Positions 36,001 to 45,000 are shown, numbered from the stretch's first letter. The stretch: DNA of 64,000 bases from Escherichia coli (GCF_003790525.1 NZ_CP033635.1), one strand, 5' to 3'. Numbers: made by a program.

Positions 36001-39000
36001 GGAAATCGATCTGACAGAGGTCGGTGGCGAACGTTATTTTTTCTGTAATGAGCAGAACGAAAAAGGTGAGCCGGTCACCTGGCAGGAGCGGCAGTATCAG
36101 CCGTATCCCATTCAGGGGAGTGGTTTTGAACTGAATGGCAAAGGCACCAGTACGCGCCCCACGCTGACGGTTTCTAACCTGTACGGTATGGTCACCGGTA
36201 TGGTGGAAGATATGCAGAGTCTGGTCGGCGGAACGGTGGTCCGGCGTAAAGTTTATGCCCGTTTTCTGGATGCGGTGAACTTCGTCAACGGAAACAGTGA
36301 CGCCGATCCGGAGCAGGAGGTTATCAGCCGCTGGCGCATCGAGCAGTGCAGTGATTTGACAGCGGTCAGCGCGACCTTTGTACTGGCCACGCCGACGGAA
36401 ACGGACGGCGCTGTTTTTCCGGGACGTATCATGCTGGCCAACACCTGCACCTGGACCTATCGCGGCGATGAGTGCGGTTATAGCGGTCCGGCGGTCGCGG
36501 ATGAATATGATCAGCCGACGTCCGATATCACGAAGGATAAATGCAGCAAATGCCTGAGCGGCTGTAAGTTCCGCAATAACGTCGGCAACTTTGGCGGTTT
36601 TCTTTCCATTCACAAACTTTCGCAGTAATTCCATGACAGAGACAGAATCAGCGATTCTGGCGCACGCCCGGCGATGTGCGCCAGCGGAGTCGTGCGGCTT
36701 CGTGGTGAGAGCGCCGGAGGGGGAAAGATATTTCCCCTGCGTGAATATCTCCGGTGAGCCGGAGGCGTATTTCCGGATGTCGCCGGAGGACTGGCTGCAG
36801 GCAGAGATGCAGGGTGAGATTGTGGCGCTGGTCCACAGCCACCCCGGTGGTCTGCCCTGGCTGAGTGAGGCCGACCGGCGGCTGCAGGTGCAGAGTGATT
36901 TGCCGTGGTGGCTGGTCTGCCGGGGGGCGATTCACAAGTTCCGCTGTGTGCCGCATCTCACCGGGCGGCGTTTTGAGCACGGGGTGACGGACTGTTACAC
37001 GCTGTTCCGCGATGCCTATCATCTTGCAGGTATCGATTTGCCGGATTTTTACCGACATGATGACTGGTGGAAATCAGGTCAGAATCTCTATCTTGACAAT
37101 ATGGAGGCGACTGGTTTTTACCGTGTCGCACTGACAGAGGCGCAGCCCGGCGACGTGCTGCTGTGCTGTTTTGGTTCATCGGTGCCGAATCATGCCGCCA
37201 TTTACTGCGGCGACGGCGGGCTGCTGCACCATATTCCTGAACAACTGAGCAAACGAGAGAGGTATACCGACAAATGGCAGCGACGCACACACTCCCTCTG
37301 GCGTCACCGGGCATGGCACGCATCTGCCTTTACGGGGATTTGCAACGATTTGGCCGCCGCATCGACCTTCGTGTGAAAACGGGAGCCGAAGCCATCCGGG
37401 CGCTGGCCACGCAGCTCCCGGCGTTTCGTCAGAAACTGAGCGACGGCTGGTATCAGGTGCGTATTGCCGGGCGTGATACAGGCGAAAACGAATTATCAGC
37501 CCGTCTTAATGAACCGCTGGCAAATGGTGCCGTGATCCACATCGTGCCGCGTCTGGCGGGAGCCAAACGTGGTGGTGTGTTTCAGGCAGTGCTGGGCGCG
37601 GCGCTGATTGCGGTGGCATGGTGGAACCCTGCAGGCTGGCTGGGGGCTGCGGCTTTATCGGGCATGTATGCGGCAGGGGCCAGTATGGTGCTCGGTGGTG
37701 TGGCGCAGATGCTGGCACCGAAAGCCAGAATGCCCGGAGTATCAGCCACGGATAACGGCAAACAGAACACCTATTTCTCCTCACTGGAAAACATGGTTGC
37801 CCAGGGGAATGCTCTGCCCGTTCTGTACGGTGAAATGCGCGTGGGGTCACGGGTAATTTCGCAGGAGATCAGCACAGCGGATGAGGGGGATGGCGTCCGG
37901 GTTGTGGTGATTGGTCGCTGATGCAAAATGTTTTATGTGAAACCGCCTCCGGGCGGTTTTGTCGTTTATGGAGCATGACGAATGGGTAAAGGCAGCAGTA
38001 AGGGGCATACCCCGCGCGAAGCGAAGGACAACCTGAAGTCCACGCAGTTGCTGAGTGTGATCGATGTCATCAGCGAAGGGCCGATACAAGGACCGGTGGA
38101 TGGATTAAAAAGCGTGCTGCTGAACGGTACGCCGGTGCTGGACAGTGAGGGGAATACCAATATATCCGGCGTCACGGTGGTATTCCGGGCCGGTGAGCAG
38201 GAGCAGACGCCGCCGGAGGGATTTGAATCCTCCGGCTCCGAGACGGTGCTGGGTACGGAAGTGAAGTACGACACGCCGATCACCCGGACCATCACGTCGG
38301 CAAACATCGACCGTCTGCGCCTGACCTTCGGTGTGCAGGCTCTGGTGGAAACCACCTCAAAGGGGGACCGGAATCCGTCGGAAGTCCGCCTGCTGGTTCA
38401 GATACAGCGTAACGGTGGCTGGGTGACGGAAAAAGACATCACCATTAAGGGCAAAACCACCTCGCAGTATCTGGCCTCGGTGGTGGTGGGTAACCTGCCG
38501 CCGCGCCCGTTTAATATCCGGATGCGCAGGATGACGCCGGACAGCACCACAGACCAGCTGCAGAACAAAACGCTCTGGTCGTCATACACCGAAATCATCG
38601 ATGTGAAACAGTGCTACCCGAACACGGCACTGGTCGGTGTGCAGGTGGATTCGGAGCAGTTCGGCAGCCAGCAGGTGAGCCGTAATTATCATTTTCGCGG
38701 GCGCATTCTGCAGGTGCCGTCGAACTATAACCCGCAGACGCGGCAATACAGCGGTATCTGGGACGGAACGTTTAAACCGGCATACAGCGATAACCCGGCC
38801 TGGTGTCTGTGGGATATGCTGACCCACCCGCGCTACGGCATGGGGAAACGTGTTGGCGCAGCGGATGTGGACAAATGGGCGCTGTATGTTATCGGCCAGT
38901 ACTGCGACCAGTCGGTGCCGGACGGCTCTGGTGGCACGGAGCCGCGCATCACCTGTAATGCCTGGCTGACCAGGCAGCGTAAGGCGTGGGATGTGCTCAG

Positions 39001-42000: not shown

Positions 42001-45000
42001 TATCACCTGTTGCGCCGCCACTGAACCTTGTGCGCCGTTTTCATTTCACACTGAGTGCGCGTGATGCGGTGATGCAGTTTATCGACACCGGGGTGCCGAC
42101 GAATTATCGTTGCGTGATTTTTATTAAACAGATAAGCGGTAATCAGTCCTTCCATGGTGAAATGGTTCAGCTTAACGGTACCTGGCAGTATGACATTTTC
42201 AGCGCTGGTACAGGGCAGGAGCCGGGCATGGAACAGGACAGCACATATGTTGTTTATGTTTTTGCCAACATGGTGAATGTATGGCCGCAATGGGGAATAC
42301 AGTTGTGCGACAGTCATGGCAGGGTGGTCTGGAACACGGAAATGCTGCCACTGGAAGTAAAAATGACGCGAATATGGGAAAAGGATGTACCGATCAGTGT
42401 GGGACATGATGTGGCCGTAATGCCGGGGTGTACCCAGTGGACGACAGTTCAGGAAGGGGAGAGTTATTACTGGTATACCGCCAGTTTTAATGCCAGAAAC
42501 TCACAGTTATGGCGTCAGTCAACTTTTGCTGAAGATAACGTAGCGGCGCCCAATGATAATTCAGGTGTTGTTAATAACCTCTGTTATTACATAAATGCAG
42601 AAATTTATGATGCGTACTGATAGTTATGTTGAGGGCATGTAATGAAAATAATCGTCTGCACTTTTTTGCTGTTTCTTGTATCAGGTTGCGCGGGGTACAG
42701 TTCCGTTACGGAGAGAGTCCGGTGCACCGGTGTGCTGAGTCCCGGGGTTTTACAGCGAGCTTATACGGTAGATCTTACAGGGAAAATAGAAACGAAAAGC
42801 GGCACTGTGTATAAAGTATCAGCTCCGAGATTTTATGGTCAGTGGGTGAGTGAAGATATGTTTACGAAAGTTTCGTGCGTGAAGTAATCATAAAAACACC
42901 CGATTGCAAATGAATGACGACGCCCGCAATTTTGCGGGATTATTTTTTATGGAGCGAGTATGGCGGCTGTAAAAATTTCAGGCGTGCTGAGGGACGGAAC
43001 CGGAAAACCGGTACCGGGATGCATTATTGAGCTGAAAGCGAAGAGAACCAGCGAGACAGTCATCGCCACGACAGTGGCTTATGGCATGCCGGAAGAGACG
43101 GGGAGTTACAGTATGGATGTGGAGCCAGGAATATACAGGGTGACACTCAATACAGAAGGTTACCGTCCTTCGTATGTGGGAGATATGTAAGCGGCTCGTC
43201 AGAACCGTATTGATATTTACTGAGAGCTCGAGCCTGTTTAGGATTCTGTGTAAATGCCTTTTCTCAGAAGTGACCGTCCAGGCGGTCACCGAACTCGATA
43301 ATAAAGCGGCTCATTGCCATTCGCCAGTCCTTCAACGGCATCGTCCATTTCTGGGACGCAGACTGGATTGCCAGCCACACCACTTTTTTCACCGAGTCGT
43401 CTGTCGGGAACACTTTACGCTTTTTGATCGCATGGCGGATCACGCTGTTTAGCGACTCGATGGCATTCGTCGTATAGATCACTTTGCGGATGTCCGTTGG
43501 ATAAGCGAAGAACGTGGCAAGATTCGGCCAGTTAGCCTGCCAGCTTCGGCTTATCTGAGGATAGCGACTGTCCCAGGCCGCAGCGAACGCTTCCAGTGCC
43601 TGCTGACCTGCCTCTTCCGTGGGAGCCTGATAAATCGCTTTCAGGTCGCGAGTGACGGCTTTGTAGTCCTTCCATGACACGAAGCGCAGGCTGTTGCGCA
43701 CCATATGCACGATGCATAACTGGATGCGGGCCTTCGGATATACTGTGTTGATGGCATCCGGGAAGCCTTTCAGGCCATCCACACAGGCGATGAGGATATC
43801 GTTCAGACCGCGGTTTTTCAGTTCAGTCAGCACATTGAGCCAGAACTTCGCCCCTTCATTTTCGGCCAGCCACATACCCAGCAGTTCCTTCTGACCTTCG
43901 ATATTGATGCCCAGTGCCAGGAACACCGATTTGTTGATGACGCGACTGTCCTGCCGAACTTTCAGGACGATACAGTCAAGATAAACAATGGGGTAAACAG
44001 CATCCAGTGGTCTGTTTTGCCATTCTACAACCTGCTCCATCACGGCATCGGTGACCTTTGATATCAGTGCCGGTGAAACATCTGCGTCATACAGTTCTTT
44101 GAACGCAGTAGCTATCTCACGGGTGGTCATCCCTTTGGCATACAACGAGAGGATCTGGTTATCCATCCCGGTAATACGGGTCTGATTTTTCTTTACCAGT
44201 TGTGGTTCGAAGGTACCGTCACGATCGCGCGGAGTACGCAGTTCCAGTGGACCGTCGCCTGTGATAACGGTCTTTGTGGAATAACCGTTGCGGGAGTTAG
44301 CTCCTGGTCTGGACTGATTTTTCTCATACCCAAGATGGTGTGTCATCTCTGCATTGAGAGCGGCTTCAACGCTGAGCTTTTTCAGCAGCCGATCAAACTG
44401 ACTGAGGTCTTCAGGGGTTTTGAGGTTTTTGGCCAGTTCGTTAGCCAGAGCCTGTAACTGTTTTTCGTCCATAAATTAACCTTCATTTGATGCTGGATTG
44501 AACATATCAAAATCAGGCAATTACACAAATCTATGTACAGGCTCGAGAGCTCAGATCAACTTTCCAGGGCAACAGATCGCGTACCCGGTTTGCCGGCCAG
44601 TCCTGGATATGTTCAATGACGTAACGCAGCCACTTTTCTGGCTCCACATTGTTCAGACGGCATGTGCCGATCAGCGAGTACAACACCGCCGCATGTTCAC
44701 CACCGCTGTCGGAACCCGCGAACATCCAGTTTTTCCGGCCTACGGCCACTCCCCGTAAGGCGTTCTCTGCGATGTTGTTGTCGATTTCCACCCAGCCATT
44801 ACTGCAGTACACGTTCAGTGCATCCCACTGTTTCAGCAGGTATGCGAACGCTTTTGCCGTATCTGAGTGACGCGACAGTGTTTTCATCTGTTGCTGTATC
44901 CAGTCATACAGTGACTGCATCAGTGGCGCGGCTCTGGCTTTTCTTGCCGCCAGACGCTGTTCTGCTGAACAGCCCCGGACCTCTGCCTCGATGGCATACA

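What the first reader, a model, noticed from the sequence alone, without database searches (positions are those of the whole stretch)
37982..42887. Replaced J C-terminus with downstream accessory ORFs and a Cor-like lipoprotein: candidate host-range and exclusion module
J follows lambda gpJ for ~990 residues, then switches to a coiled-coil region with 33-bp and 174-bp tandem repeats and a different terminal domain. Two coupled ORFs (86 and 220 aa) and an 81-aa lipoprotein with a lipobox follow. In phi80/N15/HK022-type phages a small lipoprotein (Cor) in this position blocks the phage receptor FhuA. This suggests the prophage targets a different receptor from lambda (not LamB) and encodes a matching exclusion factor. 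The repeat copy number could vary.
Basis: partly seen in the sequence, partly recalled or inferred. Interest (0 to 1): 0.55.

Follow-up and report, generated by a model that had tools for sequence, protein, structure and literature searches.

The report
Prophage tail-tip receptor and exclusion cassette
A lambda-like prophage of E. coli has lost lambda's LamB-binding tail tip and instead carries a rare, very divergent version of the known N15/phi80-type cassette (short J tip, small adaptor protein, separate receptor-binding protein, Cor-like blocking lipoprotein); its receptor is still unknown.

Summary
The ORFs, repeats and coordinates are real. One detail is wrong: J is lambda-like (94%) for about 836 residues, not about 990. 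A ~244-residue repeat-built coiled-coil insertion follows, then a lambda-like Phage_Tail_Tip domain, then a 63-residue tip. Lambda's LamB-binding domain (~185 aa) is absent.

All four parts are remote homologues of N15/phi80 gp21 C-terminus, gp22, gp23 and Cor, in the same order:
- 86-aa ORF versus the gp22 family: hhalign 93.9%.
- 81-aa lipoprotein versus Cor: hhalign 98.1%, with the same lipobox, two cysteines and W/F motif.

Repeat copy number does vary: J is 1238, 1180 or 1169 aa in otherwise ≥99.7%-identical prophages.

The allele is rare: 9 of 5,426 complete E. coli genomes, no sequenced phage, 2 IMG/VR contigs. It is 20-30% identical to characterised RBPs. Its only close relative (48-62%) sits behind the tail spike of 933W-like short-tailed prophages.

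The most likely function is host recognition plus receptor blocking. The receptor (FhuA or another outer-membrane protein) cannot be assigned. This is a new member of a known kind, of moderate interest.

The parts
37982..41698 (+). gpJ-type central tail fibre / tail-tip protein, 1238 aa
   Evidence: NCBIfam lambda_TipJ 1982 bits; phrog_31; 93.7% identical to lambda J over aa 1-836
40496..41227 (+). ~244-residue insertion relative to lambda J (aa ~839-1082): Pro-free, amphipathic, coiled-coil-like rod
   Evidence: Global alignment to lambda J; no Pro and 6 Gly in the 243 residues aa 838-1080; hydrophobic period 3.65 residues, 0 of 500 shuffles reach it over the same stretch
40516..40593 (+). 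33-bp (11-aa, [11 protein letters not shown]) tandem repeat, 2.4 copies; 1.4 copies in strains LH50-c and Ch1
   Evidence: TRF; strain comparison
40676..41175 (+). 174-bp (58-aa) tandem repeat, 2.9 copies; 1.9 copies in TUM1886, F1022, LH50-c and Ch1
   Evidence: TRF score 916; J lengths of 1238, 1180 and 1169 aa
41231..41608 (+). Phage_Tail_Tip domain (PF09327) of J, aa 1084-1209, about 50% identical to lambda J 852-945
   Evidence: Pfam E 2e-34; alignment
41507..41698 (+). J terminal tip (aa 1176-1238) ending ...[17 protein letters not shown]. It replaces lambda's LamB-binding domain and is the presumed docking site for the downstream proteins. Matches of most other E. coli and phage J genes stop at about 41490-41500, which marks the left edge of the cassette.
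   Evidence: The C-terminal motif is shared with N15, phi80, HK225, tonnikala and 933W L0125.
41698..41958 (+). 86-aa gp22-like small tail-tip protein; start overlaps the J stop codon
   Evidence: hhalign versus the gp22/L0126 family 93.9%, E 1.6e-7; phrog_557 E 8.5e-4; 62% identical to the sister-cassette ORF including the N-terminal 12 residues
41958..42620 (+). 220-aa gp23-like protein, the candidate receptor-binding protein (RBP)
42642..42887 (+). 81-aa Cor-like outer-membrane lipoprotein, candidate receptor-blocking / superinfection-exclusion factor
   Evidence: Lipobox LVSGC; invariant C16, C28, G30, Y57, P62, W68, F74 and C79 shared with Cor; phrog_1119 Cor E 8.6e-7; NF047972 28.7 bits against a cut-off of 31; hhalign 98.1%, E 1.4e-13; small beta-barrel model whose top BFVD hits are phage lipoproteins and SIE proteins
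42923..42948 (+). Intrinsic-terminator-like hairpin plus T-run directly after the lipoprotein gene, as after cor in N15, phi80 and HK225
   Evidence: annotated terminators after cor
42960..43190 (+). 5' fragment (76 codons) of the side tail fibre gene (right flank of the cassette), cut by a ~4-kb IS1414 + ISCro1 insertion at 43187-47208

Best explanation
This is the host-recognition end of a lambda-like prophage in which lambda's built-in LamB-binding domain has been replaced by an N15/phi80-type split tail-tip module.

Shown by the sequence and searches:
- J keeps lambda's N-terminal 836 residues, which build the tail tip.
- J then carries a repeat-built, coiled-coil-like extension whose length differs between strains.
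- J ends in a short conserved tip (...VLRVRLGRL) instead of a receptor-binding domain.
- Three translationally coupled or closely spaced genes follow, and each is homologous to its positional counterpart in N15/phi80: gp22-like (86 aa), gp23-like (220 aa) and Cor-like lipoprotein (81 aa).
- A terminator-like hairpin closes the unit.

Inferred from homologous systems:
- One copy of the 220-aa all-beta protein caps the trimeric J tip and is the actual receptor-binding protein for an outer-membrane beta-barrel protein.
- The 86-aa protein is an accessory or adaptor at the tip.
[quoted passage not shown] There it binds the periplasmic side of the same receptor and makes it unusable. This would exclude phages that use that receptor and protect progeny from adsorbing to debris.
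- The coiled-coil repeats set how far the RBP is held from the tail.

The receptor is not determined. FhuA is the single most likely candidate (about 35-40%). Another TonB-dependent transporter or other outer-membrane protein is about as likely.
For: Gene order is identical to N15, phi80, HK225 and Midgardsormr38.

Homology of each part:
- J tip motif.
- 86 aa: hhalign 93.9%.
- 220 aa: phrog_425 E 3e-27 with 14 invariant columns across 9 family members.
- 81 aa: hhalign 98.1% to Cor, with the same lipobox, two Cys and W/F motif.

Other evidence:
- Lambda's RBD is absent.
- The three downstream genes co-diverge as a set in the sister cassette (62, 52 and 48% identity) with pN below pS.
- The cassette's left boundary lies at J aa ~1170, where other J genes stop matching.

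Literature:
- RBP loci downstream of gpJ with cognate exclusion proteins (PMC8594841; bioRxiv 10.64898/2026.04.02.716166).
- The 'hand-like' gp23-type protein modelled as the cap of J and binder of FhuA or BamA (PMC12309495).
- Cor inactivates FhuA (Uc-Mass 2004, cited in PMC9836094).
Against: - No function was tested, and all assignments rest on remote homology (20-36% identity).
- The lipoprotein is below NCBIfam's Cor equivalog cut-off and has no Pfam or PADLOC match.
- Its structural matches are weak (best E 1.8e-3).
- No sigma-70-like promoter is seen just upstream of the lipoprotein gene, so expression in the lysogen, which prophage-mediated exclusion needs, is not evident.
- Strain TUM1886 carries two prophages with the identical cassette. 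This is not what a tight exclusion system predicts, unless the cassette spread by recombination between resident prophages.
- The side tail fibre gene next door is IS-disrupted, so this particular prophage may be decaying.
Confidence: 0.75

Rival explanations
1. Same module, and the receptor is specifically FhuA. The 220-aa protein binds FhuA, and the lipoprotein is a functional Cor that blocks FhuA-dependent phages and colicin M.
For: - Cor is the only characterised family that the lipoprotein matches.
- Its identity to phi80 and Midgardsormr Cor (32-36%) equals that between phi80 Cor and the Cor homologue of the T1-like phage tonnikala (36%).
- The tonnikala-type RBP allele is 99% identical to that of JLBYU19, a Warwickvirus newly reported in a study of FhuA-dependent coliphages (PMC10373560 Table 1). 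It is itself only 23-25% identical to the phi80/N15 type, whose receptor is FhuA. If that allele also binds FhuA, which I infer rather than read in the paper, low identity does not imply a different receptor.
- FhuA use predominates among wild lambdoid phages (Hernandez-Sanchez 2008, cited in PMC11893012).
Against: - The RBP falls outside the >30% identity and >99% coverage criterion used to define the FhuA-specific RBP family (bioRxiv 10.64898/2026.04.02.716166).
- The same protein family includes 933W/phi24B-type members assigned to BamA (PMC12309495).
- The Cor equivalog cut-off is missed.
- Lipoproteins of the Llp/Cor structural class are proposed to target TonB-dependent transporters in general (bioRxiv 10.64898/2026.03.26.714494).
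Confidence: 0.37
2. Same module, but retargeted to a receptor other than FhuA or LamB (another TonB-dependent transporter, BamA, LptD or similar), with the Cor-like lipoprotein co-evolved to block that receptor.
For: - This is a deep, isolated branch. In 1.84 billion representative proteins the lipoprotein-subfamily profile has only 9 hits at E <= 1e-3.
- The RBP has one relative above 30% identity in 5.8 billion sequences, and no sequenced phage carries either.
- The RBP and the lipoprotein diverge together.
- The fold is shared with an LptD binder.
- Other alleles of the J-downstream RBP locus target BtuB, YncD and LptD, and related phrog_425 proteins are assigned to FhuA or BamA (PMC8594841, PMC12309495).
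Against: No positive evidence points to any particular alternative receptor. Divergence alone is compatible with FhuA (see the first rival).
Confidence: 0.38
3. The downstream ORFs are not host-range or exclusion genes. On this reading the 86- and 220-aa proteins are assembly chaperones or 'membrane-associated' morons, as databases label them, and the lipoprotein is a lysogenic-conversion moron (Bor/Lom-like) unrelated to phage exclusion. Alternatively the whole region is a decaying remnant.
For: - Database names for the families are 'outer membrane protein' and 'membrane associated protein'.
- In 933W and an O111:H8 prophage the third position is occupied by Lom, a virulence-type moron.
- The prophage carries IS insertions.
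- Distant Cor-like lipoproteins also occur away from tail genes.
Against: - The 220-aa protein has no signal peptide or hydrophobic segment (sequence), and its fold matches a solved RBP.
- Published membrane-affinity estimates and multimer models argue against membrane insertion and for a tip cap (PMC12309495).
- The ORFs are intact and under purifying selection.
- J lacks any receptor-binding domain of its own, so some other protein must supply it.
Confidence: 0.1

Closest known systems
N15 gp21-gp22-gp23-Cor (gp24) and phi80 PHI80_21-24, HK225 and HK022 equivalents
   Same: Identical gene order and sizes (J lacking a terminal RBD, ~100 aa, ~224 aa, 77-78-aa lipoprotein, terminator, side tail fibre). 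All four parts are homologous. The J C-terminal ...VLRV-x-G(R/K)(L/I) motif is shared.
   Different: - Sequence identity is only 20-26% for the RBP, 28-36% for the lipoprotein, and profile-level only for the small protein.
- The intergenic gap before the lipoprotein gene is 21 nt here against ~110 nt.
- J is a lambda J (94%) with a 244-residue repeat insertion, not an N15-type J.
- The receptor of this allele is unknown.
RBP loci downstream of gpJ in small siphoviruses (Drexlerviridae, Dhillonvirus, Queuovirinae; BASEL, PMC8594841; bioRxiv 10.64898/2026.04.02.716166)
   Same: The concept is the same: a swappable cassette after gpJ that encodes a non-covalently attached RBP, accessory proteins and a cognate exclusion protein. 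The J tip is a compatibility element.
   Different: - It sits in a temperate lambda-like prophage.
- The allele does not fall into any of the four receptor-linked families at their >30% identity criterion.
933W / phi24B (Traversvirus) L0125-L0126-L0127-lom tail-spike tip
   Same: - The RBP and the small protein are most similar to this branch, with Cyrano slightly closer (26-30% identity, E 1e-14 to 1e-16).
- The only close relative of the window's cassette (62, 52 and 48% identity) follows an L0125 that is 99% identical to that of 933W.
   Different: - 933W has Lom, not a Cor-like lipoprotein, in third place.
- It has podovirus morphology.
- Its receptor is reported as BamA (Smith 2007, via PMC12309495).
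Oekolampad (Bas18) RBP and the Rtp45 exclusion lipoprotein acting on LptDE (PMC12685063; PDB 9RPT, 9RPS)
   Same: - The logic is the same: a tip RBP plus a small periplasmic-face lipoprotein that prevents RBP binding.
   Different: - 10% sequence identity.
- No sequence or fold match of the 81-aa lipoprotein to Rtp45.
T5 pb5 / Llp acting on FhuA (PMC9586334)
   Same: An outer-membrane lipoprotein blocks the phage's own receptor from the periplasmic side. Llp and Cor are proposed to share a fold (bioRxiv 10.64898/2026.03.26.714494). The top BFVD hits of the 81-aa model include lipoproteins of Proteus and Providencia phages and a 75-aa protein of phage DT571/2; that these are T5-like phages is from my own knowledge.
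   Different: pb5 is unrelated to the gp23-type RBP. There is no detectable sequence similarity of the 81-aa protein to Llp.

Membership tests
Cor superinfection-exclusion lipoprotein (NCBIfam NF047972, phrog_1119) | N-terminal signal peptide with lipobox cysteine and an outer-membrane sorting residue at +2 | tested here: met
   MKIIVCTFLLFLVSG|C16-A17; aligned with the lipobox of phi80, N15 and Midgardsormr Cor
Cor superinfection-exclusion lipoprotein (NCBIfam NF047972, phrog_1119) | About 77-90 aa with a conserved second Cys about 12 residues after the lipid Cys, a C-terminal Cys, and a Y...P...W...F core | tested here: met
   Invariant C28, G30, Y57, P62, W68, F74 and C79 in alignment A2; the same pattern in A5
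Cor superinfection-exclusion lipoprotein (NCBIfam NF047972, phrog_1119) | Significant match to the family profile | tested here: met
   phrog_1119 E 8.6e-7; hhalign of the subfamily against canonical Cor 98.1%, E 1.4e-13 over the full length
Cor superinfection-exclusion lipoprotein (NCBIfam NF047972, phrog_1119) | Score at or above the curated equivalog cut-off (same function implied) | tested here: not met
   28.7 bits against a cut-off of 31. It is therefore homologous to Cor, but functional equivalence (FhuA blocking) is not licensed.
Cor superinfection-exclusion lipoprotein (NCBIfam NF047972, phrog_1119) | Position: last gene of the J / gp22 / gp23 unit, before a terminator and the side tail fibre gene | tested here: met
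   compare
Cor superinfection-exclusion lipoprotein (NCBIfam NF047972, phrog_1119) | Inactivates FhuA and excludes FhuA-dependent phages | not testable with these tools
   Needs expression and plating assays
gp23-type tail-tip receptor-binding protein (phrog_425; N15 gp23, phi80 gp23, 933W L0127, JLBYU60 'hand-like' protein) | Profile match over the full length | tested here: met
   phrog_425 E 3.3e-27, residues 1-218 against profile positions 3-224; 14 invariant columns in a 9-sequence alignment
gp23-type tail-tip receptor-binding protein (phrog_425; N15 gp23, phi80 gp23, 933W L0127, JLBYU60 'hand-like' protein) | Encoded after a gp22-like ORF, behind a J or spike that ends in the short conserved tip and lacks its own RBD | tested here: met
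gp23-type tail-tip receptor-binding protein (phrog_425; N15 gp23, phi80 gp23, 933W L0127, JLBYU60 'hand-like' protein) | All-beta soluble fold resembling a solved siphophage RBP | tested here: met
   [not shown]
gp23-type tail-tip receptor-binding protein (phrog_425; N15 gp23, phi80 gp23, 933W L0127, JLBYU60 'hand-like' protein) | Present in the virion at the J tip and binds the receptor | not testable with these tools
   No multimer modelling or experiment available here
FhuA-specific RBP family as defined by comparative genomics (>30% identity, >99% coverage; bioRxiv 10.64898/2026.04.02.716166) | More than 30% identity over essentially the full length to members with experimentally assigned FhuA specificity | tested here: not met
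   20-23% global identity to phi80, N15, HK225 and tonnikala-type RBPs; BLAST alignments cover only the N-terminal 120-165 residues
gp22-like small tail-tip protein (phrog_557; N15 gp22, 933W L0126) | Profile similarity and position between J and the RBP gene, with the conserved N-terminal (Y/F)G-x-x-x-W/Y...G motif | tested here: met
   hhalign 93.9%, E 1.6e-7; phrog_557 E 8.5e-4; N-terminal motif
Lambda-type J with covalent LamB-binding C-terminal domain | C-terminal ~185 residues homologous to lambda J 948-1132 | tested here: not met
   J ends 63 residues after the FMNDVF-K-LT motif; nothing aligns to the lambda J C-terminus

The most novel reading that the evidence does not exclude
The cassette is a receptor-specificity class not yet in the catalogue for J-downstream RBP loci. 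Its gp23-type RBP and its co-diverged Cor-like lipoprotein would both act on an outer-membrane protein other than FhuA or LamB. It moves as a unit between the J fibre of lambda-like siphoviruses and the L0125 spike of 933W-like (Stx-phage-type) podoviruses. That would make Cor-like lipoproteins a retargetable exclusion family rather than FhuA-specific.
Probability: 0.35. Interest if true: 0.55.

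Novelty: new member of a known kind. Interest (0 to 1): 0.35.

Why it matters
Receptor specificity and exclusion cassettes decide which phages can infect or superinfect a strain. They are the parts people want to predict from sequence and to swap when engineering phages.

- This allele lies outside all receptor-assigned families and is absent from every sequenced phage isolate. It is therefore a concrete gap in receptor-prediction schemes.
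- Its relative in 933W-like prophages shows the same cassette serving both long-tailed and short-tailed (Stx-phage-type) virions.
- The exclusion-gene candidate is not annotated at all in the RefSeq genomes checked, so surveys of prophage-encoded defence would miss it.
- The in-frame 58-aa and 11-aa repeat polymorphism offers a natural series for testing whether fibre length matters for reaching the receptor.

Tried and rejected
- Pfam: no family for the 86-, 220- or 81-aa proteins.
- PDB sequence and profile searches: nothing for the RBP or Cor-like families, so no solved Cor or gp23-type structure exists.
- PADLOC: no hit.
- Foldseek of the lipoprotein model against the PDB: only generic small beta-barrels (Sm, Tudor, DUF903 lipoproteins) at E > 0.1. 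It did not retrieve Llp or Rtp45.
- tblastn of the lipoprotein against 50,697 phage records: only Erwinia phage Midgardsormr38 cor, E 3e-3.
- Word-indexed search of 5.8 billion proteins: only near-identical copies of the lipoprotein and one 52% relative of the RBP.
- Contexts of the more distant Cor-like lipoproteins P0007, P0009 and P0012: short contigs or positions away from tail genes, so not informative about the receptor.
- Promoter scan: no convincing lysogen promoter for the lipoprotein gene.
- IMG/VR scan: two contigs, both 100% identical, so no new variants.
- Receptor assignment by family membership was rejected, because the family holds members assigned to both FhuA and BamA, and the fold is shared with an LptD binder.
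- The 809-aa and 234-aa antisense ORFs inside J (38582-41011 and 40420-41124) were rejected as genes; they are shadows of the J frame and its repeats.

Full report
**Observation.** The ORF map matches the finding:
- J at 37982-41698 (1238 aa).
- An 86-aa ORF at 41698-41958 whose ATG overlaps the J stop codon (TAATG).
- A 220-aa ORF at 41958-42620 overlapping the previous stop codon (TGATG).
- An 81-aa ORF at 42642-42887, 21 nt further on.

Each start has a GGAG-like ribosome-binding site. Tandem Repeats Finder reports a 33-bp repeat (2.4 copies, 40516-40593) and a 174-bp repeat (2.9 copies, 40676-41175, score 916). The 81-aa product begins MKIIVCTFLLFLVSG|CA, a signal peptide with a lipobox and a non-Asp +2 residue.

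One statement is wrong. Near-identity to lambda J (93.7%) ends at about residue 836, not about 990.

**Anatomy of J.** A global alignment with lambda J gives four segments:
- aa 1-836 are lambda-like.
- aa ~839-1082 are an insertion with no lambda counterpart.
- aa ~1083-1175 are again lambda-like at about 50%. This stretch lies within the Pfam Phage_Tail_Tip domain, which spans J aa 1084-1209 (E 2e-34).
- aa 1176-1238 are a short unrelated tip.

Lambda J continues for ~185 more residues, its LamB-binding part. Nothing here aligns to that part.

Over aa 838-1080 the insertion has no proline and only 6 glycines in 243 residues. Its hydrophobic residues recur every 3.65 positions, close to 11/3, and 0 of 500 shuffles reach that power. 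The repeats themselves inflate this signal. I read the insertion as a hendecad-type coiled-coil rod built from 11-aa and 58-aa units. This is inference, not a structure.

**The downstream genes are the N15/phi80 set.** The order J / ~100 aa / ~224 aa / Cor / terminator / side tail fibre is annotated in N15 (gp21-24), phi80 (PHI80_21-24), HK225 and Erwinia phage Midgardsormr38. The window's proteins are remote homologues of each part.
- *220-aa protein.* It hits phrog_425 at E 3.3e-27 over its full length. It aligns end to end with N15 gp23, phi80 gp23, 933W L0127, tonnikala gp75 and others, with 14 invariant columns. Pairwise identity is only 20-29%.
- *86-aa protein.* It matches the gp22/L0126 family by profile-profile comparison (93.9%, E 1.6e-7).
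- *81-aa lipoprotein.* It matches PHROG Cor (E 8.6e-7). It is 28-36% identical to Cor of N15, phi80 and Midgardsormr38. It shares the lipobox, a second Cys about 12 residues on, a C-terminal Cys and a Y-P-W-F core. A profile of its subfamily matches canonical Cor at 98.1%, E 1.4e-13. It falls short of NCBIfam's Cor equivalog cut-off (28.7 against 31 bits), so homology is solid but sameness of function is not licensed.
- *Terminator.* A terminator-like hairpin with a T-run follows the lipoprotein gene at 42923-42948, as after cor in the reference phages.

The lipoprotein model (pLDDT 75.9) is a small beta-barrel. It has no significant PDB match. Its best BFVD matches are phage lipoproteins and a 'super-infection exclusion protein' of a Dhillonvirus, at weak E-values of 2e-3 to 3e-2.

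**How it probably works.** The evidence from related systems is:
- Work on small siphoviruses proposed swappable RBP loci downstream of gpJ with cognate exclusion proteins (PMC8594841), and a large receptor screen supported the link (bioRxiv 10.64898/2026.04.02.716166).
- Multimer modelling placed one gp23-type 'hand-like' protein as the cap of the trimeric J tip and as the binder of FhuA (JLBYU60) or BamA (phi24B) (PMC12309495).
- Cor inactivates FhuA by an unresolved mechanism (Uc-Mass 2004, cited in PMC9836094; bioRxiv 10.64898/2026.03.26.714494).

By analogy, the J tip docks the 220-aa RBP with help from the 86-aa protein. The RBP recognises an outer-membrane barrel. The lipoprotein blocks that barrel from inside. 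All of these steps are inferred.

A small observation fits docking by strand pairing. The J C-terminus ([17 protein letters not shown]), the N-terminus of the small protein (FGVRVWCKGRLV) and the N-terminus of the RBP (FALKLTDERGREWI) all look like strand-turn-strand motifs, and they are conserved across the whole family.

**Receptor.** It cannot be assigned.
- *For FhuA.* Cor is the only characterised match. The lipoprotein is as similar to phi80 Cor as tonnikala's Cor homologue is. Two RBP groups are only 23-25% identical to each other: the phi80/N15 type, whose receptor is FhuA, and the tonnikala/JLBYU19 type. JLBYU19 is listed as newly reported in a study of FhuA-dependent coliphages (PMC10373560), and I infer rather than read that this second group also binds FhuA.
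- *Against assuming FhuA.* The allele fails the >30% identity criterion of the FhuA family. The family includes 933W/phi24B-type members assigned to BamA. The fold is shared with an LptD binder. The Cor equivalog cut-off is missed.

I put FhuA at about 0.37 and 'another outer-membrane protein' at about 0.38.

**Rarity and relatives.**
- The cassette (window 41500-42960) is found at ≥99.7% identity in 9 of 5,426 complete E. coli genomes.
- It is found in 2 IMG/VR contigs and in no deposited phage.
- Most other J genes stop matching at window ~41490-41500 (J aa ~1170), which marks the cassette's left edge.
- In 5.8 billion proteins the RBP has one relative above 30% identity (P0005, 52%).
- That relative lies in 933W-like prophages directly after an L0125 spike that is 99% identical to 933W's. 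It is followed by an 81-aa lipoprotein (48% to the window's) and preceded by a 74/86-aa ORF (62%). It replaces 933W's L0126-L0127-lom.
- Conversely, an O111:H8 prophage has a lambda-type J with the 933W-type set including Lom.

So these cassettes move between long-tailed and short-tailed phages. The three genes diverge together, with pN below pS.

A profile of the lipoprotein subfamily finds only 9 proteins at E ≤ 1e-3 among 1.84 billion representatives. These include a handful of other Cor-like lipoproteins at about 30-38% identity.

**Repeat variation.** In six prophages with the same cassette, J is 1238 aa (window, AR_0085), 1180 aa (TUM1886, F1022; one 58-aa unit fewer) or 1169 aa (LH50-c, Ch1; one 58-aa and one 11-aa unit fewer). 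All changes are in frame.

**Caveats.**
- No promoter-like site precedes the lipoprotein gene. It may be made only with the late genes, which would protect progeny from debris rather than immunise the lysogen.
- TUM1886 holds two prophages with the identical cassette. This argues against tight exclusion, or points to recombination between residents.
- The adjacent side tail fibre gene is split by a 4-kb IS1414/ISCro1 insertion.

**Verdict.** This is a real, well-formed host-recognition and exclusion cassette of a known architecture in a rare, deeply divergent allele whose receptor is open. It is a new member of a known kind, of moderate interest.

Noticed in passing
window 42642-42887; L001 6169-6414, L017 8343-8588, L023 5136-5381, L024 4923-5168, L025 4956-5201: The 81-aa Cor-like lipoprotein ORF is intact in all five RefSeq genomes checked (one S20R polymorphism), but PGAP annotates it in none of them. 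A ~340-nt 'empty' gap is left between the 220-aa gene and the tail fibre gene.
   Followed up: yes
window 41698-41958: RefSeq starts the small ORF at an internal GTG (74 aa). The upstream ATG (86 aa) overlaps the J stop codon. Its extra residues, MFGVRVWCKGRL, are conserved in the sister cassette (MYGIQVWRKGIL) and match the family's N-terminal motif, so the 86-aa form is probably the right one. The 933W L0126 start looks similarly truncated.
   Followed up: partly
window 41640-41695, 41698-41740, 41958-42000: The J C-terminus, the N-terminus of the small protein and the N-terminus of the RBP all carry a similar strand-turn-strand motif (hydrophobic alternation, D/N/K-x-x-G turn). It is conserved in N15, phi80, HK225, tonnikala, Cyrano and 933W and may be a docking element.
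   Followed up: partly
window 43187-47208 and 52467-53786: The side tail fibre gene is split by a ~4.0-kb insertion with an 8-bp overlap of the flanks. The insertion contains IS1414 (IS256 family) and ISCro1 (IS66 family). A second 99.9%-identical IS1414 copy lies at 52467-53786. The rest of the fibre gene resumes at 47209 and contains many ~45-bp collagen-like repeats.
   Followed up: partly
L001 and L026 (E. coli TUM1886, 3.01 Mb and 2.13 Mb): One genome carries two lambda-like prophages with the identical J-tip / RBP / lipoprotein cassette. This is unexpected if the lipoprotein gives tight exclusion, and it may reflect recombination between resident prophages.
   Followed up: partly
L012 3854-7960 and L011, L013-L016 (933W-like prophages): A sister cassette (74/86 aa, 220 aa, 81-aa lipoprotein) replaces L0126-L0127-lom behind an L0125 spike that is 99% identical to that of 933W. 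A hok-like gene follows it.
   Followed up: yes
L018 1621-6451 (E. coli O111:H8 strain 8E): A lambda-type J is followed by a 933W-type small ORF, an L0127-like 203-aa protein and Lom. PGAP flags this J as 'partial, missing C-terminus', although it ends with the normal short tip ...VLRVRMGKL.
   Followed up: partly
L005 4451-4720 (phage tonnikala gp77): An 89-aa 'hypothetical protein' upstream of the gp22/gp23-like genes is a lipoprotein 36% identical to phi80 Cor, that is, an unlabelled Cor homologue in a T1-like phage. Tonnikala's RBP is 44-45% identical to 933W L0127, although the two groups are assigned to different receptors (FhuA and BamA).
   Followed up: partly
window 56610-63255 (- strand), 17182-17335, 5876-6348, 54432-54521: Context of the prophage: the trp operon with its leader (Rfam 89 bits) lies at the right end of the window. 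The prophage carries tRNA-Met and tRNA-Arg genes. C4 antisense, isrK and DicF RNAs lie at 5.9-6.3 kb, and a second isrK/c4 target pair lies at 54.4 kb.
   Followed up: no
window 38582-41011 and 40420-41124 (- strand): Long antisense ORFs (809 and 234 aa) run opposite J. They are repeat-rich shadows of the J frame with no independent support and are not treated as genes.
   Followed up: no
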